Positions 6,912 to 33,215 of a stretch of 41,100 nucleotides of DNA are shown one piece after another (position 1 is the first letter of the stretch; the number at the start of each line of letters is the position of its first letter). The translations under genes were made by a program, and so were the position numbers. Below the pieces are notes generated by a model, which searched no databases, had not been told where the DNA came from, and worked only from the letters and a program-made list of their open reading frames with translations. The stretch comes from Nemertoderma westbladi (lineage: Eukaryota > Animalia > Xenacoelomorpha), in contig JAUCBJ010000820.1 in assembly GCA_032718475.1 (NCBI GenBank), positions 1 through 41,100 of the forward strand. The letters run 5' to 3'.

Positions 6912-7377
6912 CTAATTAATACAGTGACACAGATGGCTGAAGTCTATATTGCATATTCGGCGATTAAAGGTAACTAAATTAATTGCATTGACAGTCTCTA
7001 AATGTAGAGAATTCCAAACTAATACAGACCTGTTTGCAAAGCGGTTTCTAGAGACAACTAATCTACATTGTTGCACGAATAGTTTCATATTATGTCCCCG
7101 CAAACCCTCTCTGTTCGCATCCATAAAAAAAATCGCTAAAACATAGGTCAATGTTGTTGTGACATATATTATACACCATTCGGATGTCGAAAATAATTAG
7201 CCTAATTTCTAACATTTGTAAGTTGAGGTGTGATAGTCTGTTAGAGTAACTGCTATCGGTGAGAATTAATTTGCATCTGGAGACTAAGCGTCTGGTGAAA
7301 TAGCGTTGAACGCTCAACCAAATTAATGTTGAACAATTGGTGCGGCGACCAAACCACCGTGCAGTACTCTAACAGAG
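6912..7377 (-). pseudogene. CR1-type LINE ORF2 C-terminal fragment
   Basis: LLEYCTVVWSPH, VQRYFTRRL, YSNRLSHLNL, LRGHNMKL and FANRSVLVWNSL are characteristic CR1 ORF2 C-terminal motifs. The fragment is frameshifted. Confidence 0.9.
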
Positions 7378-8215
7378 TGGATCATTCTCTGACCATAGGC
7401 AAAGACATCAAATGTTTTTAAAAATATACTTTTTCCATGTTTTTTTTTCTGACCAAAAATTTCAAAAAAAAAATTTTCGTAGCCAGTACTGCCAATCGAT
7501 TCGCCATCAAAAATAACGCAAAAAATTTTTTTTTCAAAATTTTAAATTACTGTAAATTTTTGGCGACTGGGGGGGGGGTCAATTTTTTTCGATCCGCTAT
7601 AACTCCGGAACGCTTTGTCCAAATTCGATGGGGTTTTCATTTTTCAACTTAATTTGATGTCCTCTTTCAGCCTATCCATGTTTCCAAACCCCAAACAGCG
7701 CCGTTCAAAAATTAATTTTTTCCAGTTCTAGAATTTTACAAATTTCAAAAAAGTTGCAGTATTTTATTAACCCCTTTACGGAATTCGATAGCGTTTTCGA
7801 TTTTTATATTAAACGCAATATCCTGAATCTCACTAGCCTAGTTTCGCGTCACCAACGCCAAGACTTCATACTTTTTGAGGAAAATTTTTCTAGAATAATT
7901 TTTATTTAATTACATTCATCGCGATTTCTTATTACTGGTTGCACTTGAATTGATGGAGTTTTCAATTTATTAACTAAACACGATATCGCGCATCGCACCA
8001 GCGTGGTTTCGAAATTCCAAAACGAGGTCTTCACTAGTTGCAGGTCGATTTTGTTCTAGAATTGAGTAACTAATAATAGATCGTATTTATTAATAATTAT
8101 TGTATGAAATAAGATTGTATTTTTACATAATTATTAGTTCTATAATAATTCTCGTTGTCTCTTTTATTTGAAATAAAAAGTCGGTTCCTTATCGGGCCGC
8201 TAGGCCCGTCACTAG

Positions 8216-9154
8216 TTAGCAAGTCGTTAGACTTGATTACTGTAAGAATTGTTGACTGACTGGCTGGCTGACTGACTGGCTGGCTGACTGACTGGCTGGC
8301 TGATCTACAGCCAAAACTACTCTAACGATTTTGATGAAATTTTCACAGCATCTAGATACCGCGATTCTAAGGTCCCTGGCATGATCGGCTACTCCGTCCA
8401 TAGCCTCTGGGCTCGAAAAATAGAGATAAACGAAAAAAACGCCATTGGCGCAATGGTAAAATAACACCCATGACAGCTGGTGTCCTGATGAAAACTGGCT
8501 TATGTAATGCATTTCTACACAAAGCTTAGTATAAATCGATGAGGTTGCCAAGATTATTGTACTTAGTACACCCATACTGTTTGTTTAGGCCCTGCACTCT
8601 CTGTCAAAGCAAATATTAACTGGTTGATTTAGTTTGTCTGGTTGATTTAGTGCAAGCTGAATGACTGTAGGTTACAGAGTACTATTGCACTGTATTTTAT
8701 TTTTAAATCTTTTGGCCAACATTAATACTGTGGAGGCTTTATGCTTATAAGGCGGAATGTTTACTCAGCCTCATACTGATACTCTGTAAGGCTTACACTA
8801 ACATTATAGTTTGAAATATAAAAATAACTGCTTATTATCTGTATTGGGTTAATCATTGTGGCATTCAAAATGTTTTGTTAGGTGAATGACATTTAGTGGC
8901 TAAGATTATTCTCTGTCAGATTCCCTTCACACCATAGGCAAACATTGTTGAGGCTGAGGGAATTTACTTTAGTTTACTCTACTGAGTCATTCAGCTGAAT
9001 GGATTTGAGCAATTGCCAAATTACAGAGTGGGATCTCTCTCTGACCATAGATAAATAACACTTCCCTTCTGAACAAAGGTAAACATTGTTGAGGGAACTT
9101 ACCTTTGATTGACGACTTCCGACTTGCTTAACGGCGTCTTGACGCCGTCACTAG
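8216..9154 (+). mobile_element. Type-B rolling-circle element
   Basis: Head TTAGCAAGTCGTTAGACTTG, tail CGACTTGCTTAACGGCGTCTTGACGCCGTCACTAG. Confidence 0.85.
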
Positions 9155-12100
9155 TTAGGAACCGAGAGGTTCATTACTGTAAGAATTGTTGGCTGATTGA
9201 TTGACTGGCTGGTTAATCTATAGCCAAAACTACTCTAACGATTTTGATGAAATTTTCACAGCGGCTGGATACCGCGATTCTAAGGTCCCTGGTATGTTCC
9301 GCTATTTCGTCCATGAGCCGTGGGCTCGAAAAATAGACATAAACGAAAAAACGCCATAGGCGCAATGGTAAAATAACACCAATAACAGCTGGTGTCGTGA
9401 TGAAAAATGGCTTATGTAATGGATTTCTACACAAGGCTTAGTATAAATCGATGAGGTTGCCAAAATTATTGTACTTAGTACACCCATACTGTTTGTTTAG
9501 GCCCTAGGACACTCTGTCAAAGCAAACATTATTAACTGGTTGGTTTAGATTGAAATCTATTATCGCCTCAGCTGAATTACTCTTCCCAATGCATTCTATG
9601 AGAATATCTCACTCTGCTAATGTAAGCTGAATGACTTTAAGTACACAGTGTGTTGGCTACATTAATGCCAACATTATTGCAAAATGTTTTATTGTTGGAT
9701 TACTCTCTGTCAGTCTTCCCTTCAGAACATTGTATAGGGAATTTACTTTAGTTTACTCTACTGTGCCATTCAGCTGAATGGATTTGGGCGATTGCCAAGT
9801 TACAGAGTTGGATCATTCTCTGACCATAGGCAAAGACAAATCTTTTTAAAAATATAATTTTTCCATGTTTTTTTTTCTGACCAAAAATTTCAAAAAAAAT
9901 TTTTCGTAGCCAGTACTGCCAATCGATTCGCCATCAAAAATAACGCCAAAAAATTTTTTTGCAAAATTTTAAATTACTGTAAATTTTTGGCGACTGGGGG
10001 GGGGTCAATTTTTTTCGATCCGCTATAACTCCGGAACGCTTTGTCCAAATACGATGGGGTTTTCATTTTTCAACTTAATTCAATGTCCTCTTTCAGCCTA
10101 TCCATGTTTCGAAACCCCAAACACCGCCGTTCAAAAATAAATTTTTTCTCGTTCTAGAATTTTACAAATTTCAAAAAAGTTGCAGTATTTTATTAACGCC
10201 TTTACGGAATTCGATAGCGTTTTCGATTTTTATATTAAACGCAATATCCTGAATCTCACTAGCCTAGTTTCGCGTCACCAATGCCAAGACACTGTGCCAT
10301 TCAACTGAATGGATTTGAGCGATTGCCAAGTTACAGAGTTGGATCATTCTCTGACCATAGGCAAAGGCAAATCTTGTTAAAATATACTTTTTCCATGTTT
10401 TTTTTTCTGACCAAAAATTTCAAAAAAATTTTTTCGTAGCCAGTACTGCCAATCGATTCGCCATCAAAAATAACGCCAAAAAATTTTTTTGCAAAATTTT
10501 AAATTACTGTAAATTTTTGGCGACTGGGGGGGCTCAATTTTTTTCGATCCGCTATAACTCCGGAACGCTTTGTCCAAATTCGATGGGGTTTTCATTTTTC
10601 AACTTAATTCGATGTCCTCTATCGGCTACATTAATGCCAACATTAATACTGTGGAGGCTGTATACTTATAAGATGGAATGTTTACTCAGCCTTATACTGA
10701 TACTCTGTAAGGCTAAGACCAACATTATTGCAAAATGTTTTATTGTTGGATTACTCTCTGTCAGTCTCCCCTTCAGAACATTGTATAGGGAATTTACTTT
10801 AGTTTACTCTACTGTGCCATTCAGCTGAATGGATTTGAGCGATTGCCAAGTACAGAGTTGGATCATTCTCTGACCATAGGCAAAGACATCAAATCTTTTT
10901 AAAAATATACTTTTTCCATGTTTTTTTTCTGACCAAAAATTTCAAAAAAAATTTTTCGTAGCCAGTACTGCCAATCGATTCGCCATCAAAAATAACGCAA
11001 AAAATTTTTTTTGCAAAATTTTAAATTACTGTAAATTTTTGGCGACTGGGGGGGGTCAATTTTTTTCGATCCGCTATAACTCCGGAACGCTTTGTCCAAA
11101 TTCGATGGGGTTTTCATTTTTCAACTTAATTCGATGTCCTCTTTCAGCCTATCCATGTTTTGAAACCCCAAACAGCGCCGTTCAAAAATTATTTTTTTCT
11201 AGTTCTAGAATTTTACAAATTTCAAAAAAGTTGCAGTATTTTATTAACGCCTTTACGGAATTCGATAGCGTTTTCGATTTTTATATTAAACGCAATATCC
11301 TGAATCTCACTAGCCTAGTTTCGCGTCACCAATGCCAAGATTTCATACTTTTGAAGAAATTTTTCTAGAATATTTTTTATTTAATTACATTTATAGCGAT
11401 TTCTTATTACTGATTGCACATGAATTGATGGAATGACTATTAGGTATACAGTGTATCGGCTACATTAATGCCAACATCATTGCAAAATGTTTTATTGTTG
11501 GATTACTCTCTGTCAGTCTCCCCTTAAGAATATTGTATAGGGAATTTACTTTAGTTTACTCTACTGTGCCATTCAGCTGAATGGATTTGAGCGATTGCCA
11601 AGTTACAGAGTTGGCTCATTCTCTGACCATAGGCAAAGACAAATCTTTTTAAAAATATAATTTTTCCATGTTTTTTTTTCTGACCAAAAATTTCAAAAAA
11701 AATTTTTCGTAGCCAGTACTGCCAATCGATTCGCCATCAAAAATAACGCAAAAAATTTTTTTTGCAAAATTTTAAATTACTGTAAATTTTTGGCAACTGG
11801 GGGGGGGGGTCAATTTTTTTCGATCCGCTATAACTCCGGAACGCTTTGTCCAAATTCGATGGGGTTTTTATTTTTCAACTTAATTCGATGTCCTCTTTCA
11901 GTCTATCCATGTTTCGAAACCCCAAACAGCGCCGTTCAAAATTTAATTTTTTCTAGTTTTAGAATTTTACAAATTTCAAAAAAGTTGCAGTATTTTATTA
12001 ACGCCTTTACGGAATTCGATAGCGTTTTCGATTCTTATATTAAATGCAATATCCTGAATCTCACTAGCCTAGTTTCGCGTCACCAACGCCAAGACTTCAT

Positions 12101-12287
12101 ACTTTTTGAGGAAAATTTTTCTAGAATAATTTTTATTTAATTACATTTATAGCGATTTCTTATTACTGGTTGCACATGAATTGATGGAGTTTTCAATTTA
12201 TTAACTAAACACGATATTGCGCATCGCACCAGCATGGTTTCGAAATTCCAAAACGAGGTCTTCACTAGTTGCAGGTCGATTTTGTTC

Positions 12288-12615
12288 TGTTCTGTCCTGT
12301 CGATTTTGGCATCATGTAGCGGAGATGCAGAACGGAAAACGCGACTCAATTTGTGAGTCTCTGATCAAAGAAAACTTTGGTTCTCGGTACAGAGATGGGA
12401 ATTAGTTGTGAGCGAGTTTGGTTGTGTTTTATCCGAGGTTGATTAAGGTGATAATTGTCGGTTAATTAGTTTGGATGGCATTCGGTGCTGATAGTAACGT
12501 TGCAACTATTCGAATCAACTATCTTAGCTCAATTATTAATGATGGATGCTATACATGATAAAGTTTGTTTATATATATTGTGTAAATACTTATAAAATAA
12601 ATAACACAATTTACA
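12288..12615. mobile_element. 328-bp insertion in a type-A element, solo-LTR-like (second copy 24992-25319)
   Basis: Absent from the other A units. It has TGT...ACA ends, AATAAA near the right end, and TTTTGTTC(T) repeated on both sides. Confidence 0.55.
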
Positions 12616-12787
12616 TTTTGTTCTAGAATTGAGATTGAGCAACTAATAATAGATCGACTTATTAATAATTATTGTTTGAAATGTGATTGTATTTTTACAT
12701 AATTATTAGTTCTATACTAATTTTCATTGTCTCTTTTATTTAAAATAAAAAGTCGGTTCCTTATCGGGCCGCTAGGCCCGTCACTAG

Positions 12788-13812
12788 TTAGCAAGTCGTT
12801 AGACTTGATTACTGTAAGAATTGTTTGCTGATTGACTGGCTGACTGACTGACTGACTGACTGACTGACTGACTGACTGACTGACTGACTGACCTACAGCC
12901 AAAACTACTCTAACGATTTTGATGAAATTTTCACAGCAGCTAGATACCGCGATTCTAAGGTCCCTGGCATGATCGGCTACTCCGTCCATAGCCTCTGGGC
13001 TTGAAAAATAGAGATAAACGAAAAAACGCCATAGGCGCTATGGTAAAATAACACCAATGACAGCTGGTGTCCTGATGAAAAATGGCTTATGTAATGCATT
13101 TCTACACAAAATGTTAGTAATAAATCGATGAGGTTGCCAAGATTATTGTACTTAGTACACCCATACTGTTTGTTTAGGCCCTACCAACCACTCTCTGCAA
13201 ACAAACATCAACTGGTTGGTTTGCTATTCTATAGGGAGCCACCTAACAAGGAAGTACATACAGTGCCAACTTTATAATCATTCACTGGGTTAGCCGGCTA
13301 TTACAGCCTCAGCTGAATAACTCTTCCCCCTGCTGAATGACTATTAGGTATACAGTGTATCGGCTACATTATGCCAACATTAATACTGTGGAGGCTGTAT
13401 GCTTATAAGGCGGAATGTTTACTCAGCCTGCTACTGATACTCTGTAAGGCTTACACTAACATTATAGTTTGAAATATAAAAATAACTGCTTATTATCTGT
13501 ATTGGGTTAATCACTGTGGCATTCAAAATGTTTTGTTAGGTGAATGACATTTAGTGGCTAAGATTATTCTCTGTCAGATTCCCTTCACACCATAGGCAAA
13601 CATTGTTGAGGCTGAGGGAATTTACTTTAGTTTACTCTACTGAGTCATTCAGCTGAATGGATTTGAGCAATTGCCAAATTACAGAGTGGGATCTCTCTCT
13701 GACCATAGATAAATAACACTTCCCTTCTGAACAAAGGTAAACATTGTTGAGGGAACTTACCTTTGATTGACGACTTCCGACTTGCTTAATGGCGTCTTGA
13801 CGCCGTCTCTAG
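12788..13812 (+). mobile_element. Type-B rolling-circle element
   Basis: Same B head, tail CGACTTGCTTAATGGCGTCTTGACGCCGTCTCTAG. Confidence 0.85.
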
Positions 13813-14632
13813 TTAGGAACCGAGAGGTTCATTACTGTAAGAATTGCTCGAGACTGGCTGACTGACTGACTGATCTACAGCCAAAACTACTCTAACGATT
13901 TTGATGAAATTTTCACAGCGGCTAGATACCGCGATTCTAAGGTCCCTGGTATGTTCCGCTATTTCGTCCATGAGCCGTGGGCTCGAAAAATAGACATAAA
14001 CGAAAAAACGCCATAGGCGCAATGATAAAAACACCAGCTGGCACTCATGAAAAATGGATAGAGATAGCCTAGTAATGATATTACAATAGGAATGGCCACC
14101 TAACAAGGAAATGCTTTCTCTGCCAAGTTTTATCCTCACTCTACAACTCAGACAGTAAGCAAACAAAAGCCGTGGGATTCTAATGTATTACATCATAAGC
14201 TGATTGCTCTCCCAATAGCCCTCACACACTCACTGAATCCAATGAAATCGAATATCTATTAGCATAATGCGAATAGCTGGTAAGGTGAATGCCATTTTAG
14301 TTATTGTGTACTGTTGATTGCAGAGTTGTCTGCTATGTTGTATGTATTTAAATAAAATAATTTTCGTAGAGGGAAGTTAATTTGGGATTACTCTCTATCA
14401 GATGTAAGCAAAGCTGTTCAATGGGGTGGGCCATGGGACCCAAATATGGTACATTATGCATGGCAAACATTAATAAAATCATTCAGTCAACCTGGAGGGT
14501 ATTTGCTTCGTTAACTCTACTGTGCGAAAAACGAATTCATAATGTTACCCATACTTCAGGTGAATGAATTTTTAGATATTTGTACTGAAGGCAAGGATTT
14601 CTGATATAATTAAAATACAAGACAGGGGCTTG

Positions 14633-14990
14633 TTTCGATATATGTAGTTGCGCCCTTCGAGCAGCACGTGAGTTAATCAAATATTAGACACAATGTTTGA
14701 CTTTGTCCCTTCGAGCAGCACGTGAGTTTTGCTTTGACCCTTCGATATATGTATTTGCGCCCTTCGAGCAGCACGTGAATTACATCAAATAATAGACACA
14801 TTGTTTGACTTTGTCCCTTCGAGCAGCACGTGAGTTTTGCTTTGACCCTTCGATATATGTATTTGCGCCCTTCGAGCAGCACGTGAATTACATCAAATAA
14901 TAGACACATTGTTTGACTTTGTCCCTTCGAGCAGCACGTGAGTTTTGCTTTGACCCTTCGATATATGTATTTGCGCCCTTCGAGCAGCAC
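14633..14990. repeat. 108-bp tandem repeat, about 3.3 copies
   Basis: Each unit carries CCCTTCGAGCAGCACGTGA twice. The overlapping ORF shows 36-aa periodicity. Confidence 0.92.
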
Positions 14991-15006
14991 GGGGAGTCGA
15001 CTCAGA

Positions 15007-15860
15007 CCGAGCCAAGCCGAGCTAAGCCGAGCCAAGCCGAACCGAGCCGAGCCGAGCCGAGCCGAGCCGAACCGAGCCGAGCCGAGCCGAGCCGAGCCGA
15101 GCCGAGCCGAGCCGAACCGAGCCGAGCCGAGCCGAGCCGAGCCGAGCCGAGCCGAGCCGAGCCGAGCCGAGCCGAGCCGAGCTGAGCCGAACCGAGCCGA
15201 GCCGTGCCGAGCCGAGCCGAGCCGTGCCGAGCCAGCCGAGCCGAACCGAGCCGAGCCGAGCCGAGCCGAACCGAGCCGAGCCGATCCGAGCCGAGTCGAG
15301 TCGAGACCGAACCGAGCCGAGCCGAGCCGAGCTGAGCCGAGCCGAGCCGAGCCGAGCCGAGCCGAACCGAGCCGAGCCGAGCCGGGCCGAGCCGGGCCGA
15401 GCCGGGCCGGGCCGAGCCGAGCCGAGCCGAGCCGAGCCGAGCCGAGCCGAGCCGATCCGAGCCGAGCCGAGTCGAACCGAACCGAGCTGAGCCGAGCCGA
15501 GCCGAGCCGAGCCGAGCCGAGCCGAGCCGAGCCGAGCCGAGCCGAGCCGAGCCGAACCGAGCCGAGCCGAGCCGAGCCGAGCCGAGCCGAGCCGGGCCGA
15601 GCCGGGCCGAACCGAGCCGAGCCGGGCCGAACCGAGCCGAGCCGAGCCGAGCCGGGCCGAGCCGGGCCGAGCCGAGCCGGGCCGAACCGAGCCGAGCCGA
15701 GCCGAGCCGAGCCGAGCCGAGCCGAGCCGAGCCGAGCCGAGCCGAGCCGAGCCGAGCCGAACCGAGCTGAGCCGAGCCGAGCCGAGCCTAATCGAGCCAA
15801 ACCGAGCCGATCAAGCCAAGTCGAACTTAATCGTGCCCAATCGTGCAAGACCGAGCCGAG
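15007..15860. repeat. (GCCGA)n pentanucleotide satellite, about 850 bp
   Basis: Directly visible, with variants ACCGA, GCCGG and GCTGA. Confidence 0.98.
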
Positions 15861-15925
15861 CTCGTTGTCTCTTTTATTTGAAATAAAAAGTCGGTTCCTT
15901 ATCGGGCCGCTAGGCCCGTCACTAG

Positions 15926-18900
15926 TTAGGAACCGAGAGGTTCATTACTGTAAGAATTGTTAGCTGACTGGCTGGCTGGCTGGCTGGCTGACTGGCTGAT
16001 CTATAGCCAAAACTACTCTAACGATTTTGATGAAATTTTCACAGCATCTAGATACCGCGATTCTAATGTCCCTGGCATGATCGGCTACTCCGTCCATAGC
16101 CTCTGGGCTCGAAAAATAGAGATAAACGAAAAAACGCCATAGGCGCAATGGTAAAATAACACCCATGACAGCTGGTGTCCTGATGAAAAATGGCTTATGT
16201 AATGCATTTCTACACAAGGCTTAGTATAAATCGATGAGGTTGCCAAGATTATTGTACTTAGTACACCCATACTGTTTGTTTAGGCCCTGCACTCTCTGTC
16301 AAAGCAAATATTAACTGGTTGGTTTGCTATTCTATAGGGAGCCACCTAACAAGGAAGTACATACAGTGCCAACTTTATAATCATTCACTGGGTTAGCCGG
16401 CTATTACAGCCTCAGCTGAATAACTCTTCCCAATGCTTTCTATGGCGATCTACAAGGTTACTCTCTCTTCTATGTTAATTGATGTGTAAGCTGATTGACT
16501 GTTAGTTACACAGTGTGTTGGGTACTATTGGATTGCACTGTATTTATAATAATAATTGTTTTATTTTTAAATCTTTCAGCCAACATTAATTCCGTGGAGG
16601 CAGTATGCTTATAAGGTTCCACCTTGTAAGCAAGAAAGCAAGCACTCTCTGTCAGTCTCCCCTTCAGAACATTGTATAGGGAATTTACTTTAGTTTACTC
16701 TACTGTGCCATTCAGCTGAATGGATTTGAGCGATTGCCAAGTTACAGAGTTGGATCATTCTCTGACCATAGGCAAAGACATGAAATCTTTTTAAAAATAT
16801 ACTTTTTCCATGTTTTTTTTCTGACCAAAAATTTCAAAAAAAATTTTTTCGTAGCCAGTACTGCCAATCGATTCGCCATCAAAAATAACGCAAAAATTTT
16901 TTTTTGCAAAATTTTAAATTACTGTAAATTTTTGGCGACTGGGGGGGGTCAATTTTTTTCGATCCGCTATAACTCCGGAACGCTTTGTCCAAATTCGATG
17001 GGGTTTTCATTTTTCAACTTAATTCGATGTCCTCTTTCAGCCTATCCATGTTTCGAAACCCCAAACAGCGCCGTTCAAAAATTAATTTTTTCTAGTTCTA
17101 GAATTTTACAAATTTCAAAAAAGTTGCAGTATTTTATTAACGCCTTTACGGAATTCGATAGCGTTTTCGATTTTTATATTAAAAGCAATATCCTGAATCT
17201 CAATAGCCTAGTTTCGCGTCACCAATGCCAAGACTTCATACTTTTTGAGAAAAATTTTTCTAGATTAATTTTTATTTAATTACATTTATCGCGATTTCTT
17301 ATTACTGGTTGCACATGAACTGATGGAGTTTTCAATTTATTAACTAAACACGATATCGCGCATCGCACCAGCGTGGTTTCGAAATTCCAAAACGAGGTCT
17401 TCACTAGTTGCAGGTCGATTTTGTTCTAGAATTGAACAACTAATAATAGATCAAATTTATTAATTGCCAAGTTACAGAGTTGGATCATTCTCTGACCATA
17501 GGCAAAGACATCAAATCTTTTTAAAAATATACTTTTTCCATGTTTTTTTTCTGACCAAAAATTTCAAAAAAAATTTTTTCGTAGCCAGTACTGCCAATCG
17601 ATTCGCCATCAAAAATAACGCAAAAATTTTTTTTTGCAAAATTTTAAATTACTGTAAATTTTTGGCGACTGGGGGGGGGGTCAATTTTTTTCGATCCGCT
17701 ATAACTCCGGAACGCTTTGTCCAAATTCGATGGGGTTTTCATTTTTCAACTTAATTAGATGTCCTCTTTCAGCCTATCCATGTTTCCAAACCCCAAACAG
17801 CGCCGTTCAAAAAATAATTTTTTCCAGTTCTAGAATTTTACAAATTTCAAAAAAGTTTCAGTATTTTATTAACGCCTTTACGGAATTCGATAGCGTTTTC
17901 GATTTTTATATTAAACGCAATATCCTGAATCTCACTAGCCTAGTTTCGCGTCACCAACGCCAAGACTTCATACTTTTTGAGGAAAATATTTCTAGAATAA
18001 TTTTTATTTAATTACATTTATCGCGATTTCTTATTACTGGTTGCACATGAATTGATGGAGTTTTCAATTTATTAACTAAACACGATATCGCGCATCGCAC
18101 CAGCGTGGTTTCGAAATTCCAAAACGAGGTCTTCACTAGTTGCAGGTCGATTTTGTTCTAGAATTGAGCAACTAATAATAGATCGAATTTATTAATAATT
18201 ATTGTATGAAATATGATTGTATTTTTACATAATTATTAGTTCTATACTAATTCTCGTTGTCTCTTTTATTTAAAATAAAAAGTCGGTTCCTTATCGGGCC
18301 GCTAGGCCCGTCACTAGTTAGGAACCGAGAGGTTCATTACTGTAAGAATTGTTAGCTGACTGGCTGACTGACTGGCTGACTGATCTACAGCCAAAACTAC
18401 TCTAACGATTTTGATGAAATTTTCACGGCGGCTAGATACGGCGATTCTAAGGTCCCTTGTATGTTCCGCTATTTCGTCCATGAGCCATGGGCTCGAAAAA
18501 TAGACATAAACGAAAAAACGCCATAGGCGCAATGGTAAAATAACACCAATGACAGCTGGTGTCCTGATAAAAAATGGTTTATGTAATGCATTTCTACACA
18601 AGGCTTAGTAATAAATCGATGAGGTTGCCAAGATTATTATACTTAGTACACCCATACTGTTTGTTTAGGCCCTGCACTCTCTGTCAAAGCAAATATTAAC
18701 TGGTTGATTTAGTTTGTGGTTCTACACAGGCTTAGTATAAATCGATGAGGCTGCCAACTGGTTGGTTTAGTTTGCAATCTATTACCGCCTCAGCTGAATA
18801 ACTCTTCCCCCTGCTGAATGACTATTAGGTATACAGTGTATCGGCTACATTAATGCCAACATTAATACTGTGGAGGCTGTATACTTATAAGATGGAATGT

Positions 18901-21900: not shown

Positions 21901-24900
21901 TTGATGGAGTTTTCAATTTATTAACTAAACACGATATCGCGCATCGCACCAGCGTGGTTTCGAAATTCCAAAACGAGGTCTTCACTAGTTGCAGGTCAAT
22001 TTTGTTCTAGAATTGAGTAACTAATAATAGATCGAATTTATTTAATTATTGTATGAAATAAGATTGTATTTTTACATAATTATTAGTTCTATAATAATTC
22101 TCGTTGTCTCTTTTATTTGAAATAAAAAGTCGGTTCCTTATCGGGCCGCCAGGCCCGTCACTAGTTAGGAACCGAGAGGTTCATTACTGTAAGAATTGTT
22201 GGCTGATTGATTGACTGGCTGGCTGGCTAATCTATAGCCAAAACTACTCTAACGATTTTGATGAAATTTTCACAGCGGCTGGATACCGCGATTCTAAGGT
22301 CCCTGGTATGTTCCGCTATTTCGTCCATGAGCCGTGGGCTCGAAAAATAGACATAAACGAAAAAACGCCATAGGCGCAATGGTAAAATATCACCAATAAC
22401 AGCTGGTGTCGTGATGAAAAATGGCTTATGTAATGGATTTCTACACAAGGCTTAGTATAAATCGATGAGGTTGCCAAGATTATTGTACTCAGTACACCCA
22501 TACTGTTTGTTTAGGCCCTAGGACACTCTGTCAAAGCAAATATTAACTGGTTGGTTTAGTTTGAAATCTAATATCACCTCAGCTGAATTACTCTTCCCAA
22601 TGCAATCTATGGGAATATCTCACTCTCTGCTAATGTAAGCTGAATGACTGTTACGTACACAGTGAGTTGGCTACATTAATGCCAACATTATTGCAAAATG
22701 TTTAATTGTTGGATTACTCTCTGTCAGTCTCCCCTTCAGAACATTGTATAGGGAATTTACTTTAGTTTACTCTACTGTGCCATTCAGCTGAATGGATTTG
22801 AGCGATTGCCAAGTTACAGAGTTGGATCATTCTCTGACCATAGGCAAAGACATCAAATCTTTTTAAAAATATACTTTTTCCATGTTTTTTTTTCTGACCA
22901 AAAAATTCAAAAAAAAATTTTTTGTAGCCAGTACTGCCAATCGATTCGCCATCAAAAATAACGCAAAAAATTTTTTTTGCAAAATTTTAAATTACTGTAA
23001 ATTTTTGGCGACTGAGGGGGGGTCAATTTTTTTCGATCCGCTATAACTCCGGAACGCTTTGTCCAAATTCGATGGGGTTTTCATTTTTCAACTTAATTCG
23101 ATGTCCTCTTTCAGCCTATCAATGTTTCGAAACCCCAAGCAGCGCCGTTCAAAAATTAATTTTTTCTAGTTCTAGAATTTTACAAATTTCAAAAAAGTTG
23201 CAGTATTTTATTAACGCCTTTACGGAATTCGATAGCGTTTTCGATTTTTATATTAAACGCAATATCCTGAATCTCACTAGCCTAGTTTCGCGTCACCAAT
23301 GCCAAGACTTCATACTTTTTGAGGAAAATTTTTCTAGAATAATTTTTATTTAATTACATTTATCGCGATTTCTTATTACTGGTTGCACATGAATTGATGG
23401 AGTTTTCAATTTATTAACTAAACACGATATCGCGCATCGCAACAGCGTGGTTTCGAAATTACCAAAACGAGGTCTTCACTAGTTGCAGGTCGATTTTGTT
23501 CTAGAATTGAGCAACTAATAATATATCGAATTTATTAATAATTATTGTATGAAATATGATTGTATTTTTACATAATTATTAGTTCTATACTAATTCTCGT
23601 TCTTTCTTTTATTTAAAATAAAAAGTCGGTTCCTTATCGGGCCGCTAGGCCCGTCACTAGTTAGGAACCGAGAGGTTCATTACTGTAAGAATTGCTCGTG
23701 GCTGACTGGCTGGCTGGCTGATCTACAGCCAAAACTACTCTAACGATTTTGATGAAATTTTCACAGCGGCTAGATACCGCGATTCTAAGGTCCCTGGCAT
23801 GATCGGCTACTCCGTCCATAGCCTCTGGGCTCGAAAAATAGACATAAACGAAAAAACGCCATAGGCGCAATGGTAAAATAACACCAATAACAGCTGGTGT
23901 CGTGATGAAAAATGGCTTATGTAATGGATTTCTACACAAGGCTTAGTATAAATCGATGAGGTTGCCATGATTATTGTACTCTGTACACCCATACTGTTTG
24001 TTTAGGCCCTAGGACACTCTGTCAAAGCAAATATTAACTGGTTGGTTTAGTTTGAAATCTATTATCGCCTCAGCTGAATTACTCTTCACAATGCATTCTA
24101 TGTAAGTATCTCACTCTGCTAATGTAAGCTGAATGACTTAAGTACACAGTGTGTTGGCTACATTAATGCCAACATTATTGCAAAATGTTTTATTGTTGGA
24201 TTACTCTCTGTCAGTCTCCCCTTCAGAACATTGTATAGGGAATTTACTTTAGTTTACTCTACTGTGCCATTCAGCTGAATGGATTTGAGCGATTGCCAAG
24301 TTACAGAGTTGGATCATTCTCTGACCATACTGTAGGCAAAGACAAATCTTTTTAAAAATATAATTTTTCCATGTTTTTTTTTCTGACCAAAAATTTCAAA
24401 AAAATTTTTTCGTAGCCAGTACTGCCAATCGATTCGCCATCAAAAATAACGCAAAAAATTTTTTTTGCAAAATTTTAAATTACTGTAAATTTTTGGCAAC
24501 TGGGGGGGGGGGGTCAATTTTTTTCGATCCGCTATAACTCCGGAACGCTTTGTCCAAATTCGATGGGGTTTTTATTTTTCAACTTAATTCGATGTCCTCT
24601 TTCAGTCTATCCATGTTTCGAAACCCCAAACAGCGCCGTTCAAAATTTAATTTTTTCTAGTTTTAGAATTTTACAAATTTCAAAAAAGTTGCAGTATTTT
24701 ATTAACGCCTTTACGGAATTCGATAGCGTTTTCGATTCTTATATTAAATGCAATATCCTGAATCTCACTAGCCTAGTTTCGCGTCACCAACGCCAAGACT
24801 TCATACTTTTTGAGGAAAATTTTTCTAGAATAATTTTTATTTAATTACATTTATAGCGATTTCTTATTACTGGTTGCACATGAATTGATGGAGTTTTCAA

Positions 24901-27900
24901 TTTATTAACTAAACACGATATTGCGCATCGCACCAGCATGGTTTCGAAATTCCAAAACGAGGTCTTCACTAGTTGCAGGTCGATTTTGTTCTGTTCTGTC
25001 CTGTCGATTTTGGCATCATGTAGCGGAGATGCAGAACGGAAAACGCGACTCAATTTGTGAGTCTCTGATCAAAGAAAACTTTGGTTCTCGGTACAGAGAT
25101 GGGAATTAGTTGTGAGCGAGTTTGGTTGTGTTTTATCCGAGGTTGATTAAGGTGATAATTGTCGGTTAATTAGTTTGGATGGCATTCGGTGCTGATAGTA
25201 ACGTTGCAACTATTCGAATCAACTATCTTAGCTCAATTATTAATGATGGATGCTATACATGATAAAGTTTGTTTATATATATTGTGTAAATACTTATAAA
25301 ATAAATAACACAATTTACATTTTGTTCTAGAATTGAGATTGAGCAACTAATAATAGATCGACTTATTAATAATTATTGTTTGAAATGTGATTGTATTTTT
25401 ACATAATTATTAGTTCTATACTAATTTTCATTGTCTCTTTTATTTAAAATAAAAAGTCGGTTCCTTATCGGGCCGCTAGGCCCGTCACTAGTTAGCAAGT
25501 CGTAGGACTTGATTACTGTAAGAATTGTTGGCTGATTGACTGGCTGGCTGGCTGGCTGACTGGCTGGCTGGCTGGCTGGCTGATCTACAGCCAAAACTAC
25601 TCTAACGATTTTGATGAAATTTTCACAGCGGCTAGATACCGCGATTCTAAGGTCCCTGGTATGTTCCGCTATTTCGTCCATGAGCCGTGGGCTCGAAAAA
25701 TAGACATAAACGAAAAAACGCCATAGGCGCAATGGTAAAATAACACCAATGACAGCTTGTTGATGGAATTTACATTTGATTGATGACTTCCGACTTGCTT
25801 AACGGCGTCTTGACGCCGTCTCTAGTTAGGAACCGAGAGGTTCATTACTGTAAGAATTGTTAGCTGACTGGCTGGCTGGCTGGCTGGCTGACTGGCTGAT
25901 CTATAGCCAAAACTACTCTAACGATTTTGATGAAATTTTCACAGCATCTAGATACCGCGATTCTAATGTCCCTGGCATGATCGGCTACTCCGTCCATAGC
26001 CTCTGGGCTCGAAAAATAGAGATAAACGAAAAAACGCCATAGGCGCAATGGTAAAATAACACCCATGACAGCTGGTGTCCTGATGAAAAATGGCTTATGT
26101 AATGCATTTCTACACAAGGCTTAGTATAAATCGATGAGGTTGCCAAGATTATTGTACTTAGTACACCCATACTGTTTGTTTAGGCCATGCACTCTCTGTC
26201 AAAGCAAATATTAACTGGTTGGTTTGCTATTCTATAGGGAGCCACCTAACAAGGAAGTACATACAGTGCCAACTTTATAATCATTCACTGGGTTAGCCGG
26301 CTATTACAGCCTCAGCTGAATAACTCTTCCCAATGCTTTCTATGGCGATCTACAAGGTTACTCTCTCTTCTATGTTAATTGATGTGTAAGCTGATTGACT
26401 GTTAGTTACACAGTGTGTTGGGTACTATTGGATTGCACTGTATTTATAATAATAATTGTTTTATTTTTAAATCTTTCAGCCAACATTAATTCCGTGGAGG
26501 CAGTATGCTTATAAGGTTCCACCTTGTAAGCAAGAAAGCAAGCACTCTCTGTCAGTCTCCCCTTCAGAACATTGTATAGGGAATTTACTTTAGTTTACTC
26601 TACTGTGCCATTCAGCTGAATGGATTTGAGCGATTGCCAAGTTACAGAGTTGGATCATTCTCTGACCATAGGCAAAGACATGAAATCTTTTTAAAAATAT
26701 ACTTTTTCCATGTTTTTTTTCTGACCAAAAATTTCAAAAAAAATTTTTTCGTAGCCAGTACTGCCAATCGATTCGCCATCAAAAATAACGCAAAAATTTT
26801 TTTTTGCAAAATTTTAAATTACTGTAAATTTTTGGCGACTGGGGGGGGTCAATTTTTTTCGATCCGCTATAACTCCGGAACGCTTTGTCCAAATTCGATG
26901 GGGTTTTCATTTTTCAACTTAATTCGATGTCCTCTTTCAGCCTATCCATGTTTCGAAACCCCAAACAGCGCCGTTCAAAAATTAATTTTTTCTAGTTCTA
27001 GAATTTTACAAATTTCAAAAAAGTTGCAGTATTTTATTAACGCCTTTACGGAATTCGATAGCGTTTTCGATTTTTATATTAAAAGCAATATCCTGAATCT
27101 CAATAGCCTAGTTTCGCGTCACCAATGCCAAGACTTCATACTTTTTGAGAAAAATTTTTCTAGATTAATTTTTATTTAATTACATTTATCGCGATTTCTT
27201 ATTACTGGTTGCACATGAACTGATGGAGTTTTCAATTTATTAACTAAACACGATATCGCGCATCGCACCAGCGTGGTTTCGAAATTCCAAAACGAGGTCT
27301 TCACTAGTTGCAGGTCGATTTTGTTCTAGAATTGAACAACTAATAATAGATCAAATTTATTAATTGCCAAGTTACAGAGTTGGATCATTCTCTGACCATA
27401 GGCAAAGACATCAAATCTTTTTAAAAATATACTTTTTCCATGTTTTTTTTCTGACCAAAAATTTCAAAAAAAAATTTTTCGTAGCCAGTACTGCCAATCG
27501 ATTCGCCATCAAAAATAACGCAAAAATTTTTTTTTGCAAAATTTTAAATTACTGTAAATTTTTGGCGACTGGGGGGGGGGTCAATTTTTTTCGATCCGCT
27601 ATAACTCCGGAACGCTTTGTCCAAATTCGATGGGGTTTTCATTTTTCAACTTAATTAGATGTCCTCTTTCAGCCTATCCATGTTTCCAAACCCCAAACAG
27701 CGCCGTTCAAAAAATAATTTTTTCCAGTTCTAGAATTTTACAAATTTCAAAAAAGTTTCAGTATTTTATTAACGCCTTTACGGAATTCGATAGCGTTTTC
27801 GATTTTTATATTAAACGCAATATCCTGAATCTCACTAGCCTAGTTTCGCGTCACCAACGCCAAGACTTCATACTTTTTGAGGAAAATATTTCTAGAATAA

Positions 27901-28217
27901 TTTTTATTTAATTACATTTATCGCGATTTCTTATTACTGGTTGCACATGAATTGATGGAGTTTTCAATTTATTAACTAAACACGATATCGCGCATCGCAC
28001 CAGCGTGGTTTCGAAATTCCAAAACGAGGTCTTCACTAGTTGCAGGTCGATTTTGTTCTAGAATTGAGCAACTAATAATAGATCGAATTTATTAATAATT
28101 ATTGTATGAAATATGATTGTATTTTTACATAATTATTAGTTCTATACTAATTCTCGTTGTCTCTTTTATTTAAAATAAAAAGTCGGTTCCTTATCGGGCC
28201 GCTAGGCCCGTCACTAG
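15926..28217. repeat. Higher-order duplications within the cluster
   Basis: 15926-18317 matches 25826-28217 (offset 9900). About 10620-11790 matches about 18840-20010 (offset 8219). About 11790-12787 matches about 24494-25491 (offset 12704). Offsets are taken from identical ORF translations. Confidence 0.9.
25492..25825 (+). mobile_element. Minimal type-B element (334 bp, internally deleted)
   Basis: B head (CAAGTC-GTAG-GACTTG) and B tail retained, most of the interior missing. Confidence 0.85.
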
Positions 28218-29728
28218 TTAGGAACCGAGAGGTTCATTACTGTAAGAATTGCTCGTGGCTGGCTGACTGGCTGGCTGGCTGACTGATCTACAGCCAAAAC
28301 TACTCTAACGATTTTGATGAAATTTTCACAGCGGCTAGATACCGCGATTCTAAGGTCCCTGGTATGTTCCGCTATTTCGTCCATGAGCCGTGGGCTCGAA
28401 AAATAGACATAAACGAAAAAACGCCATAGGCGCAATGGTAAAATAACACCAATAACAGCTGGTGTCGTGATGAAAAATGGTTATGTAATGGATTTCTACA
28501 CAAGGCTTAGTATAAATCGATGAGGTTGCCAAGATTATTGTACTTAGTACACCCATACTGTTTGTTTAGGCCCTGCACTCTTTGTCAAAGCAAATATTAA
28601 CTGGTTGATTTAGTTTGTGGTTCTACACAGGCTTAGTATAAATCGATGAGGCTGCCAACTGGTTGGTTTAGTTTGCAATCTATTACCGCCTCAGCTGAAT
28701 AACTCTTCCCCCTGCTGAATGACTATTAGGTATACAGTGTATCGGCTACATTAATGCCAACATTATTGCAAAATGTTTTATTGTTTGATTACTCTCTGTC
28801 AGTCTCCCCTTCAGAACATTGTATAGGAAATTTACTTTAGTTTACTCTACTGTGCCATTCAGCTGAATGGATTTGAGCGATTGCCAAGTTACAGAGTTGG
28901 ATCATTCTCTGACCATAGGCAAAGGGAAATCTTGTTAAAATATACTTTTTCCATGTTTTTTTTTCTGACCAAAAATTTCAAAAAAAATTTTTCGTAGCCA
29001 GTACTGCCAATCGATTCGCCATCAAAAATAACGCAAAAAATTTTTTTTGCAAAATTTTAAATTACTGTAAATTTTTGGCGACTGGGGGGGGTCAATTTTT
29101 TTCGATCCGCTATAACTCCGGAACGCTTTGTCCAAATTCGATGGGGTTTTCATTTTTCAACTTAATTCGATGTCCTCTTTCAGCCTATCCATGTTTCGAA
29201 ACCCCAAACACCGCCGTTCAAAAATAAATTTTTTCTAGTTCTAGAATTTTACAAATTTCAAAAAAGTTGCAGTATTTTATTAACGCCTTTACGGAATTCG
29301 ATAGCGTTTTCGATTTTTATATTAAACGCAATATCCTGAATCTCACTAGCCTAGTTTCGCGTCACCAATGCCAAGACTTCATACTTTTTGAGGAAAATTT
29401 TTCAAGAATAATTTTTATTTAATTACATTTATCGCGATTTCTTATTACTGGATGCACATGAATTGATGGAGTTATCAATTTATTAACTCAACACGATATC
29501 GCGCATCGCACCAGCGTGGTTTCGAAATTCCAAAACGAGGTCTTCACTAGTTGCAGGTCGATTTTGTTCTAGAATGGAGCAACTAATAATAGATCGAATT
29601 TATTAATAATTATTGTATGAAATATGATTGTATTTTTACATAATTATTAGTTCTATACTAATTCTCGTTGTCTCTTTTATTTAAAATAAAAAGTCGGTTC
29701 CTTATCGGGCCGCTAGGCCCGTCACTAG

Positions 29729-29786
29729 TATTATGTTACACACTTTGTAAGCCTTTGACACTTGCTGGCTGCAATATTTGCTGAAA
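29729..29786 (-). pseudogene. 58-bp stranded internal piece of the same CR1 ORF2
   Basis: Translates FSKYCSQQVSKAYKVCNII and joins in frame to ...KDLGVIMTKNLN at 31287 once 29787-31286 is removed. Confidence 0.85.
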
Positions 29787-31286
29787 TCAGGAACCGAGAG
29801 GTTCATTACTGTAAGAATTGCTCGAGACTGGCTGGCTGACTGATTGATTGACTGACCTACAGCCAAAACTACTCTAACAATTTTGATGAAATTTTCACAG
29901 CGGCTAGATAGCGCGATTCTAAGGTCCCTGGTATGTTCTGCTATTTCGTCCATGAGTCGTGGGCTCGAAAAATAGACATAAACGAAAAAACGCCATAGGC
30001 GCAATGGTAAAATAACACCAATAACAGCTGGTGTCGTGATGAAAAATGGCTTATGTAATGGATTTCTACACAAGGCTTAGTATAAATCGATGAGGTTGCC
30101 AAGATTATTGTACTCAGTACACCCATACTGTTTGTTTAGGCCCTAGGACAAGGACACTCTGTCAAAGCAAATATTAACTGGTTGGTTTAGTTTGAAATCT
30201 ATTATCGCCTCAGCTGAATTACTCTTCCCAATGCATTCTATGGGGATATCTCACTCTGCTAATGTAAGCTGAATGACTTAAGTACACAGTGTGTTGACTA
30301 CATTAATGCCAACATTATTGCAAAATGTTTTATTGTTGGATTACTCTCTGTCAGTCTCCCCTTCAGAACATTGTATAGGGAATTTACTTTAGTTTACTCT
30401 ACTGTGCCATTCAGCTGAATGGATTTGAGCGATTGCCAAGTACAGAGTTGGATCATTCTCTGACCATAGGCAAAGACATCAAATCTTTTTAAAAATATAC
30501 TTTTTCGATGTTTTTTTTCTGACCAAAAATTTCAAAAAAAAATTTTTCGTAGCCAGTACTGCCAATCGATTCGCCATCAAAAATTACGCAAAAAATTTTT
30601 TTTGCAAAATTTTAAATTACTGTAAATTTTTGGCGACTGGGGGGGTCAATTTTTTTTCGATCCGCTATAACTCCGGAACGCTTTGTCCAAATTCGATGGG
30701 GTTTTCATTTTTCAACTTAATTCGATGTCTTCTTTCAGCCTATCCATGTTTCGAAACCCCAAACAGCGCCGTCCAAAAATTATTTTTTTCTAGTTCTAGA
30801 ATTTTACAAATTTCAAAAAAGTTGCAGTATTTTATTAACGCCTTTACGGAATTCGATAGCGTTTTCGATTTTTATATTAAACGCAATATCCTGAATCTCA
30901 CTAGCCTAGTTTCGCGTCACCAATGCCAAGATTTCATATTTTTTGAGGAAAATTTTTCTAGAATAATTTTTATTTAATTACATTTATAGCGATTTCTTAT
31001 TACTGATTGCACATGAATTGATGGAGTTTTCAATTTATTAACTAAACACGATATCGCGCATCGCACCAGCGTGGTTTCGAAATTCCAAAACGAGGTCTTC
31101 ACTAGTTGCAGGTCGATTTTGTTCTAGAATTGAGCAACTAATAATAGATAGAATTTATTAATAATTATTGTATGAAATATGATTGTATTTTTAGATAATT
31201 ATTAGTTCTATACTAATTCTCGTTGTCTCTTTTATTTAATAAAATAAAAAGTCGGTTCCTTATCGGGCCGCTAGGCCCGTCACTAG
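29787..31286 (+). mobile_element. Solitary full-length type-A element, 1500 bp
   Basis: Starts TCAGGAACCGAGAGGTTC and ends TCGGTTCCTTATCGGGCCGCTAGGCCCGTCACTAG. It sits between A and T of the CR1 host (CTGAAA^TTAAGA) with no TSD. Confidence 0.92.
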
Positions 31287-33215
31287 TTAAGATTTTTAGT
31301 CATAATAACCCCAAGATCTTTACAGGATTCCTTGAGTTCTAGAATGTCACGTTTTACTCCAACGGGTTAGAGAATCTAACGCTAGTTGCATATTTAACGA
31401 ATTTTCACTGCTGTCATAAATTTTCAAATCATCAGCAAATAGTTTGCAATCGACATATGTCAATTCTGAAGGCAAATCATTTACAAACACAAGGAATAAA
31501 ATCGGTCCCAAGACGCTTCCTTGGGGAGTTCCCGATATGACATCAGCATAATCTGAGTACTTATTGCCTACTAATATGCACTGTTTGCGATTTGTTAAAA
31601 AGGCCCGAATCCAGTCTAATAGACTACCCATGATCCCATACGCAGCCACCAACTTCTGTAAAAGTTTTGTGTGTACCACCTTGTCGAATGCTTTCTCAAA
31701 GTCGATATAAATTATATCAACATTATGTTTTTTATCTAAAAGCTTATACCAATCATTATTGGTGCACTCGAGTAAATGGGTGGCTGTGGGTCGCCGCTTC
31801 AGAAAACCATGTTGATTTTTTGAAATAATGCTGTTTGAAAGGAGGTACTTTAAGAGCTCATTTTTTATACATGTTTCCATTATTTTGCAAGCAATGCATG
31901 TCAGAGATATCGGCTGATAGTTGTATGGGTTTGATGGGTTATCTTTCTTAAACAGTGGTACAACAATGGCGGTGCGTCAAATATTCGGTAAGGAGTGCGA
32001 ACTAAAAGATATATCAAATATCGCAGACAGAGGCGCAGCCAGGTGTCTAGCCAAGCTTCGAAATAAAAGACTAGGCAAGCCATCTGGTGTGGAGCCAGAT
32101 TTGTTCTGTAAGTCACGTAAAATCTTATATACTGTACTGCACTAGGATTAAAATTAACATCACTTAAATAGGAATCATTAGGCGTCGCACGATTAAACGT
32201 AGGAATATTGCCATCATTTTGACAATAATCTTCCGCCAGTACTGTAGAAAGTCCTGGCCTTGATAAGCGTCATCAACGATCACATCACCATTGTATTTCA
32301 AGGGGGCAACTCCCGATTTATAATTACGTTTTGAATTTACGTAGCTAAAAATAGCATTTGGACATCCAGACGTTAGAATCTGGTTTTCTTTCAGACACAG
32401 ATTTCTAAATATTGTTCTAGAAATTTCTTTCGAACAGCGGTCATACGCTAATTTTCCCTGGTTCGAATGTCGCCTTCTCCACAGTAATTTTTTTTTACGT
32501 TGTAGTTTCTTAATGTGATCGGGATAACGCTTCTTTAGTGAAACCGGAATTTCTTTACGAGGAATAAAACGATTTATTCCCTGTTTAAGAACATCATCAA
32601 AAACACTCCAATATGTATCTACTGTACCACAAGAATGAAAATTACGTGACCAGTCTTGAGCTTCTAAAAATGAAGAAAAGGCTGCGTAGTCGGCATTCTT
32701 AAAGTCTAAATAATGTAATGGTTCACTGTTAACAAATTGGTATGGACCACATAGGTTAAAGGTTACAGACGAATGGTCACTTGTGGAAAAACCTCCGTTT
32801 ACAGTGACGTCACTAACACAGAGTACGTCACTGGTGAAAACGAAGTCTAGCGTACTTTCCCCCCTCTGGTGGGTTTATTTACAAGTTGAGTGAACCCTGC
32901 CTCGTGTACACAATTAAAAAAGCTCTTATATACATCAGATTCCGGAAAGGTCATTGCCTCCCAGTTAAATTCGCGGAAATTAAAATCACCAATTTGCTCC
33001 ACAGTCTACCCCACAGTTTGCTGTGGGGTAACTAACATCAGAAAGATGAGAAATACACTCACAAAATCACTTGACATATTCCAAACTACTACACAATGAA
33101 CTATTGCTGTGATAGGCACAAATTAATCTTGGTGCATCGCCAAGAATATCAACTGCAATAATTTCACAATCCTCATATTTTTTATCCGGAAAAATTCTGG
33201 CACAAGAAATGAAAC
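31287..33215 (-). pseudogene. CR1-type LINE ORF2, APE endonuclease + RT part (decayed)
   Basis: APE motifs GDFNF (about 32985), LDFVFT (about 32840) and SDH (about 32778). RT motifs QHGF, YIDFEKAFDKV, GTPQGSVLGPILF, FADD and KDLGV. Contains stops and frameshifts. Confidence 0.93.

What the first reader, a model, noticed from the sequence alone, without database searches (positions are those of the whole stretch)
7372..31286. Two-key rolling-circle elements: 5' and 3' termini co-vary and are always type-matched
Seen: type A head TAGGAACCGA (overlapping hairpin GAACC-GAGA-GGTTC) is complementary to tail TCGGTTCCT(T)A, followed by CGGGCC-GCTA-GGCCCG and CTAG. Type B head TAGCAAGTCG (hairpin CAAGTC-GTTA-GACTTG) is complementary to tail CGACTTGCT(T)A, followed by ACGGCGTC-TT-GACGCCGT and CTAG. 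The sequences differ but the geometry is the same. All 10 A heads end at A tails and all 3 B heads end at B tails. Two interior haplotypes just after the head (GGCATGATCGGCTAC vs GGTATGTTCCGCTAT) occur with both head types, so interiors reassort while ends stay matched. Known: subterminal inverted repeats, a 5' palindrome, a microsatellite and a 3' stem-loop typify Helentron/DINE-1-like elements. Inference: head-tail base pairing acts as a compatibility code for mobilisation or termination. Caveat: the three B units may not be independent.
Basis: partly seen in the sequence, partly recalled or inferred. Interest (0 to 1): 0.85.

Follow-up and report, generated by a model that had tools for sequence, protein, structure and literature searches.

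The report
Rolling-circle transposons with matched ends
A 24-kb head-to-tail pile of non-coding jumping elements holds two end types whose starts and ends are always complementary while the sequence just inside the start is shared between types, which fits the published but, in the papers I found, untested idea that start-to-end pairing likely tells the copying enzyme where to stop.

Summary
Observation confirmed: 13 of 13 headed units (10 A, 3 B) end in the matching tail; the 9-nt inverted repeats differ at 5 of 9 positions, mirrored in the tail. The 178-column core behind the head is unsorted by type (15 of 20 informative sites four-gamete, 0 fixed differences). These are non-autonomous Helitron2/HLE2 (HINE, DINE-1-like) elements, lying inside one broken LINE. 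What this locus adds is a natural experiment (two keys, one shared core) and ends that read best as 5'-TT...CTAG-3' at N^T targets. The array does not prove a compatibility code: units are not independent (p from 0.003 to 0.1), and non-crossover gene conversion would keep ends matched passively. No whole genome was held, contigs were too short to link head to tail, and no autonomous partner was seen. The scan's notes showed no earlier finding of this element. New member of a known kind; useful as a ready 2x2 swap test.

The parts
6936..7378 (-). Host LINE, C-terminal part (left flank); joins U0 through a short overlap at about 7372-7378
   Evidence: tblastn of RT homologs: P0007 residues 804-959 map to 7378-6936
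7372..8215 (+). U0, type A, headless: A-specific 3' module and A tail
8216..9154 (+). U1, type B; subTIR 8218-8226 and 9120-9128; core haplotype 1
9155..12787 (+). U2, type A; subTIR 9157-9165 and 12753-12761; fused mosaic with several restarts of the A module
12788..13812 (+). U3, type B; carries a 119-nt block identical to A units U5/U11
13813..15925 (+). U4, type A with a different interior (108-bp repeat x3.3, (CCGAG)n); only about 210 nt of 5' end and 66 nt of 3' end match other units exactly
15926..18317 (+). U5, type A; near-identical to U11
18318..20662 (+). U6, type A; followed by 3 extra bases TTA (20663-20665)
20666..22164 (+). U7, type A, single A module; core differs from B unit U1 at 1 of 177 sites
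22165..23660 (+). U8, type A
23661..25491 (+). U9, type A; 3' 979 nt identical to U2
25492..25825 (+). U10, short type B (334 nt); core haplotype 2, nearest to A unit U12
   Evidence: its internal joint also in contigs of runs X2 and X4
25826..28217 (+). U11, type A; near-identical to U5
28218..29728 (+). U12, type A; right end of the main array
29729..29786 (-). 58-nt piece of the host LINE between the two insertion sites
   Evidence: its minus-strand translation beat 200 of 200 shuffles against homolog segments; modal alignment offset 11 after the DLG motif (24 of 107), as expected
29787..31286 (+). U13, type A, separate single insertion with both flanks; head begins TC
31287..33180 (-). Host LINE, endonuclease-to-RT part (right flank)
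   Evidence: RVT_1 E=1.2e-23; P0007 residues 105-713 map to 33180-31353
8236..8480 (+). Example of the shared 5' module: ATTACTGTAAGAATTG, (CTGA/CTGG)n microsatellite, 178-column core

Best explanation
The region is a head-to-tail array of 13 non-coding elements plus one separate copy nearby, all inside one broken LINE, with the end structure of Helitron2/HLE2 rolling-circle transposons; it holds two end types with exactly matched 9-nt inverted repeats, and the matching was likely maintained because head-to-tail pairing is predicted to open the 5' hairpin and mark where copying stops. Shown: the anatomy, the matching, a core unsorted by type, the LINE host, and that neighbours are never each other's closest relatives. 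Inferred: (1) a RepHel transposase supplied in trans nicks at the head and releases at CTAG; (2) the element is 5'-TTAG...CTAG-3' and joins its 3' end to a target T, so a resident head (TTAG) is itself a good target and new copies land at junctions with no spacer; (3) multi-unit blocks were also duplicated inside the array; (4) the core moves between A and B by double exchanges (gene conversion or template switching) bounded on the left by the head or microsatellite and on the right by the degenerate central repeats, which leaves ends matched with or without selection; (5) over long times selection for pairing carried 5 mirrored changes through head, hairpin partner and tail.
For: Matching 13 of 13; 5 of 9 subTIR positions differ between types in both head and tail, tail geometry identical (26 nt to CTAG) and 3 of 6 tail stem pairs exchanged. 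Hairpins fold at z -2.7 to -3.9. Matched duplex -11.8/-12.1, swapped -3.2/-2.9, hairpins -4.0/-4.9 kcal/mol. Core: 15 of 20 informative sites four-gamete with end type, 0 fixed differences, p-distance AA 0.067, AB 0.064, BB 0.068. 0 of 14 units has a neighbour as nearest relative. 11 of 12 junctions inside the main array read CTAG|TTAG, one has 3 extra bases. Contig joints put a CTAG end in front of TAAG and TTTAC, and a TTAG head behind GAAA. Anatomy matches the Helitron2 definition (PMC3627910).
Against: No autonomous partner with these ends was seen; no genome is held. The perfect repeat is 9 nt, below the 11-nt family rule of Thomas 2014 and the size used by HELIANO. Units are not independent: 15916-18864 and 25816-28765 are 99.2% identical, and 1001 nt ending inside a B head are identical before U3 and U10, so part of the array arose by block copying. 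The number of terminal Ts is ambiguous; U13's site also fits T^T; one X4 contig has CTAG followed by A. A contig in X2 shows a B tail without its subTIR (joint 9042-9131), and in a Helitron1 element the whole right end was not essential (PMC4778049 section 8).
Confidence: 0.68

Rival explanations
1. Passive matching. A and B are two old families, each perhaps with its own transposase that reads end sequence. Their cores are homogenised by non-crossover gene conversion, which never separates a head from its tail. Head-tail pairing need not act as a filter today.
For: Short conversion-like tracts exist (U9 switches haplotype for under about 70 nt; Rm = 2). A and B share no homology near their tails, and the last shared 95-nt block has 7 differences between the 2 long B copies and all 12 A copies (counted by eye), so exchange is confined to the 5' part. 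Thomas 2014 treats different subTIRs as different families.
Against: It does not explain why 5 of 9 changes are mirrored across three arms. Among A units the marker 14 nt behind the head and the last 150 nt occur in mixed combinations, and blocks of 0.7-1.7 kb are exchanged, so flank-changing events do occur in this array.
Confidence: 0.4
2. The pattern is a small-sample effect: the three B units go back to one or two insertions copied with their surroundings, so 13 of 13 means little.
For: U1 and U3 share 275 identical nt at the 3' end; U3 and U10 share 1001 identical nt upstream; U2-U3-U5-U6 parallels U9-U10-U11-U12. With 1 B of 10 the chance of a match is 0.1.
Against: The U10 tail variants (9098 C>T, 9103 C>A) are abundant in all four runs, its internal joint is in X2 and X4, and B-tail depth is roughly a sixth to a half of A-tail depth in X1-X3 (summed contig depth is no copy number), so B looks like a genome-wide family with at least two tail haplotypes.
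Confidence: 0.2
3. The inverted repeat is kept complementary by copying, not by selection: pairing of the ends in the single-stranded intermediate lets repair copy a change from one arm to the other.
For: The fold of whole U10 puts head and tail in one helix in the centroid structure. Inference only.
Against: The 3' hairpin, which is not part of the inverted repeat, also differs by exchanged pairs; a 9-nt helix is a poor repair substrate (general knowledge).
Confidence: 0.1
4. The array is a rolling-circle concatemer or a satellite made by unequal crossing-over of one unit.
For: Head-to-tail order with no spacer; concatemers are reported for Helitrons (PMC5148889, PMC11934779 passages); some blocks are duplicated.
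Against: 0 of 14 units is closest to its neighbour; units run from 334 to 3633 nt and mix two end types; U4, with a different interior, sits exactly at a junction.
Confidence: 0.07

Closest known systems
Helitron2 / HLE2 non-autonomous elements (Bao and Jurka 2013, PMC3627910), esp. Helitron-1N1_CQu and -1N2_CQu
   Same: 8-15 bp asymmetric TIRs, 5' arm 0-2 bp from the end and part of a 5' hairpin, 3' arm 20-30 bp from the end ahead of a hairpin; compensatory changes between two related elements; pairing proposed to set the endpoint.
   Different: Here the two types share an unsorted core and are interleaved in one array; the passages read say nothing of this for the Culex pair (their Figure 5C was not available).
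HINE / DINE-1 (Thomas, Vadnagara, Pritham 2014, PMC4067079); Cg_HINE of oyster (PMC7492417)
   Same: subTIRs, nested 5' inverted repeat, microsatellite, core, central repeats, 3' stem-loop, no target duplication, clustering next to one another.
   Different: subTIR is 9 nt rather than 11-15; ends read best as TT...CTAG at N^T rather than T-runs at T^T. The oyster groups share flanks and differ inside; here two different end sets share the inside.
proto-Helentron of Phytophthora (PMC4067079; revisited in PMC11417382)
   Same: 5' TT and 3' CTAG ends, insertion between A and T, HLE2 affinity.
   Different: HELIANO places its stem-loop at the 5' end far from the left repeat (HLE2-reverse-like); here the canonical HLE2 layout is intact.
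Helitron1 (Helraiser, PMC4778049)
   Same: 3' hairpin then CTAG; target with T on the 3' side; the hairpin stem can be exchanged with about 90% activity kept.
   Different: No inverted repeats or 5' hairpin; 5' TC (here TT in 12 of 13 heads, TC in U13).
Self-inserted, composite FoHeli elements of Fusarium (PMC5148889)
   Same: HLE2 elements inserting at or near one another's 5' ends; chimeras proposed.
   Different: Those cases are a few copies or multiple 5' termini, not a 13-unit mixed array with two repeat keys.

Membership tests
Helitron2/HLE2 non-autonomous | Asymmetric TIR of 8-15 bp, 5' arm 0-2 bp from the 5' end | tested here: met
   9 bp, 1-2 nt from the end (definition)
Helitron2/HLE2 non-autonomous | 3' arm 20-30 bp from the 3' end, directly upstream of a hairpin | tested here: met
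   26 nt in both types; hairpins fold
Helitron2/HLE2 non-autonomous | 5' hairpin that uses part of the 5' arm | tested here: met
   5- and 6-bp stems, z -2.7 and -3.9
Helitron2/HLE2 non-autonomous | No target site duplication | tested here: met
   U13, the only unit with both host flanks: LINE frame and homolog spacing fit with no added bases; n = 1
Helitron2/HLE2 non-autonomous | Insertion usually between T and T | tested here: inconclusive
   U13 site and one contig joint fit T^T or A^T; U12 right flank, two contig joints and four X4 contigs do not fit T^T
Helitron2/HLE2 non-autonomous | Autonomous RepHel element of the HLE2 clade with the same ends | not testable with these tools
   No genome held; no such ORF in the array
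Helentron/HINE family rule (Thomas 2014) | subTIR of at least 11 bp | tested here: not met
   9 bp perfect; so filed under Helitron2/HLE2 in the Bao and Jurka sense, HINE-like only
Helentron/HINE family rule (Thomas 2014) | Partner transposase with a C-terminal AP endonuclease | not testable with these tools
   No partner in hand
DINE-1 sensu stricto | Microsatellite after the 5' end and a core | tested here: met
DINE-1 sensu stricto | Core homologous to the Drosophila DINE-1 core | not tested
   No DINE-1 sequence was available from the tools
Helitron1/HLE1 | 5' TC and no inverted repeats | tested here: not met
   TT in 12 of 13 heads; inverted repeats present
Helitron1/HLE1 | 3' CTRR behind a hairpin | tested here: met
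   CTAG in 14 of 14 tails

The most novel reading that the evidence does not exclude
One transposase serves both end types by reading shape plus the invariant TTAG and TCACTAG, and head-tail pairing works as a self-check: copying stops only at a tail that can open the element's own head hairpin. Interiors then recombine freely across types, mismatched recombinants are sterile or read through, and two 'keys' persist as separate species of ends on one shared gene pool of interiors, stacking into mixed arrays by targeting each other's heads.
Probability: 0.3. Interest if true: 0.68.

Novelty: new member of a known kind. Interest (0 to 1): 0.42.

Why it matters
The role of the asymmetric inverted repeats of HLE2 elements was proposed in 2013, and my library search for 'Helentron' with 'transposition assay' found no paper. 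Two natural end sets with the same geometry, 5 mirrored changes and an interchangeable core give a ready 2x2 design that separates pairing from sequence recognition. If pairing sets the stop, it predicts which tails are bypassed in mixed arrays and so how these elements capture neighbours. The locus also shows how junction-targeted insertion can build satellite-like arrays from unlike units.

Tried and rejected
Whole genome not held, so no genome-wide head/tail table. Exact-pattern scans for the core in metagenome contigs and viral contigs: 0 hits; a tail-geometry pattern gave 1 hit with no hairpin, rejected as chance. Contigs of 4 of the 5 listed runs were laid and X4 again: no listed piece spans head to tail, reads are cut at the microsatellite, and tables show only the best rows (32 pieces shown with 4545 hidden; 8 shown with 56 hidden), so they neither show nor exclude chimeras. 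Rfam: 0 matches in 7000-31500. ORFs in the array are repeat read-throughs, no RepHel (judged by eye). No other reverse-strand copies in the window. Literature: 'Helentron + compensatory + terminal' gave two unrelated papers; searches gave 0; one search gave 10 papers, three of which I opened, none showing two repeat keys on a shared core in the passages read. The library lacks most subscription journals, Repbase Reports were not searched, and no supplements or figures were seen (Thomas Additional file 7 and Bao Figure 5C could hold similar pairs). My first reading that U5 and U11 are independent unit-wise insertions was weakened: their right neighbours U6 and U12 share a private module. The GAAC/CAAG likeness to IS801 targets is treated as coincidence. 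Scan notes by sequence, near and words gave nothing.
Full report
Observation. Motif search and unit dissection give 13 heads (10 A, 3 B) and 14 tails (11 A, 3 B) between 7372 and 31286, all on the + strand. Every headed unit ends at its own type (13 of 13). U0 has no head. The perfect head/tail complement is 9 nt; the two keys differ at 5 of 9 positions in the head and at the mirrored 5 in the tail, and in both types 26 nt separate the tail arm from the final CTAG. The tail hairpins share the outer CGG/CCG pairs and exchange the inner three pairs. Head and tail hairpins fold with z-scores of -2.7 to -3.9. A 9-nt inverted match arises in 49 of 20000 random window pairs. Free reassortment of tails would give 4.6 mismatches on average and none in 0.3% of shuffles.

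Anatomy. Each unit is: TTAG head hairpin, ATTACTGTAAGAATTG, a (CTGA/CTGG)n microsatellite, a core, a patchwork of degenerate central modules, then a type-specific 3' part: about 800 nt in A (with a weak 160-nt periodicity), about 70 nt in B. U4 and U10 bound the needed ends at roughly 210-260 nt on the left and 66-70 nt on the right. No RepHel frame lies in the array (by eye) and Rfam finds nothing.

Host site. The flanks are two halves of one LINE on the minus strand: RT homolog P0007 maps residues 105-713 to the right flank and 804-959 to the left (5 of 120 homologs were run through tblastn, all alike). The 58 nt between U12 and U13 are the LINE's own continuation: their translation beat 200 of 200 shuffles and aligned most often at the expected offset (24 of 107 homolog segments). 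So U13 is a separate insertion with both flanks and no duplication, U0-U12 grew at a second site 58 nt away, and a deletion took U0's head with about 20 LINE codons (inferred from offsets).

Ends and target. 11 of 12 junctions in the main array read CTAG|TTAG and one has 3 extra bases. U12's right flank is CTAG|TATT, U13's CTAG|TTAAG. Contig joints show a CTAG end before TAAG and before TTTAC, and a TTAG head behind GAAA; four X4 contigs continue CTAGT into unlike A-rich flanks and one has CTAG followed by A. The simplest reading is 5'-TTAG...CTAG-3' inserted before a T, which makes a resident head a natural target. This rests on few sites and the Ts stay ambiguous.

How the array grew. No unit's nearest relative is its neighbour (0 of 14), which rules out a single concatemer. 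But blocks were copied: 15916-18864 matches 25816-28765 at 99.2%, 10620-12288 matches 18839-20504 at 98.6%, and 1001 nt ending inside a B head are identical before U3 and U10. U2-U3-U5-U6 thus parallels U9-U10-U11-U12, with U4 as an extra unit exactly at a junction. Both junction insertion and block duplication likely acted.

Interior exchange. In the 178-column core, 15 of 20 informative sites show both alleles with both end types, no site is fixed between types, and distances are equal (AA 0.067, AB 0.064, BB 0.068); U1 (B) is nearest to U7 (A) and U10 (B) to U12 (A), each at p = 0.006. U3 (B) shares a 119-nt block with U5/U11 (A) that U1 lacks. Exchange stops towards the tail: the last shared 95-nt block has 7 differences between the two long B units and all 12 A copies (by eye). 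So linkage to the head ends after 19 nt, linkage to the tail is long, and head and tail remain in full linkage.

Independence. U1 and U3 share 275 identical nt; U3 and U10 share a slot. Merging relatives raises the chance of full matching to 0.018 or 0.1. Against a purely local story, contigs of organism A carry the element at very high summed depth, the U10 tail variants are abundant in all 4 runs laid, its internal joint is in X2 and X4, B-tail/B-head and A-tail/A-head junctions occur, and A tails sit on unrelated upstream sequence in X4 (X1 and X2 are one sample, and the best holder may be the source of the window). No listed contig piece links a head to a tail, so chimeras are neither shown nor excluded.

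Mechanism. Matched head/tail duplexes are predicted at -11.8 and -12.1 kcal/mol, swapped at -3.2 and -2.9, head hairpins at -4.0 and -4.9: only a matched tail could open the head hairpin. Five mirrored changes across three arms argue that pairing was under selection. Whether it filters chimeras today is open: non-crossover conversion, for which short tracts are visible, keeps ends matched passively because A and B share no homology near their tails; yet long blocks and 5'/3' markers are shuffled among A units, so flank-changing events do occur. I put the overall reading at 0.68 and the active-filter version at 0.3.

Known work. PMC3627910 (passages) defines Helitron2 by exactly this anatomy, reports compensatory changes in two Culex elements, and proposes that pairing destroys the 5' hairpin and sets the endpoint. 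PMC4067079 (parts 1-4 of 8) defines families by an identical subTIR of 11 bp or more, notes Helitrons directly next to one another, and describes proto-Helentron with TT/CTAG ends. PMC11417382 (passages and section 24), PMC5148889 (passages and section 16), PMC7492417 (passages) and PMC4778049 (passages and section 8) cover HLE2 detection, self-insertion, central repeats and Helitron1 hairpin swaps. PMC11934779 and PMC3189936 (passages) added little. I found no description of two subTIR types on one shared core and no HLE2 end-swap assay, within a library that lacks most subscription papers; figures and supplements were not seen.

Verdict. Real and correctly described; a new member of the Helitron2/HLE2 non-autonomous class. 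Interest 0.42.

Noticed in passing
window 21982-21997 and 11 more copies (8031, 12262, 17401, 18133, 20479, 23476, 24966, 27301, 28033, 29544, 31099): About 185 nt before the end of most A units lies TCACTAGTTGCAGGTC, which resembles a tail|B-head junction (15 of 17; reached by 4 of 1000 shuffles, one of four queries tried). Possibly a fossil of read-through into a B-like head.
   Followed up: partly
window 9127-9148 region, contigs of X1 and X2 (table 5c): A variant B tail with 21 other letters between CGACTTG and GTCACTAG; looks like a decayed hairpin with an altered subTIR end, or a third key. Its head is unknown.
   Followed up: no
window 9042-9131, contig of X2: A B tail that lacks the subTIR but keeps the 3' hairpin, depth 80.6; whether it spread is unknown.
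   Followed up: no
window 9159-9172 and 8220-8235: The head stems begin GAAC (A) and CAAG (B), two of the four target tetranucleotides listed for the bacterial rolling-circle element IS801 (PMC3189936 passage). Probably coincidence.
   Followed up: partly
window 24993-25337 and the matching stretch in U2: A 345-nt insert in the A module of U2 and U9; most X4 depth skips it (590 against 22.8).
   Followed up: partly
window 14634-15810: U4 carries a 108-bp repeat (3.3 copies) and a (CCGAG)160 microsatellite as its interior, like HINE elements with central repeats.
   Followed up: no
window 1-4481: Tandem duplication with a 2349-bp period (99.6% identical) of a LINE RT fragment (RVT_1) plus a 36-bp minisatellite; a lone copy of the 36-bp unit lies near 35645-35680.
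   Followed up: no
window 35170-35369: A 200-bp self-complementary element, 79% arm identity, MITE-like.
   Followed up: no
window 36721-38613: 63-bp minisatellite, 30 copies.
   Followed up: no
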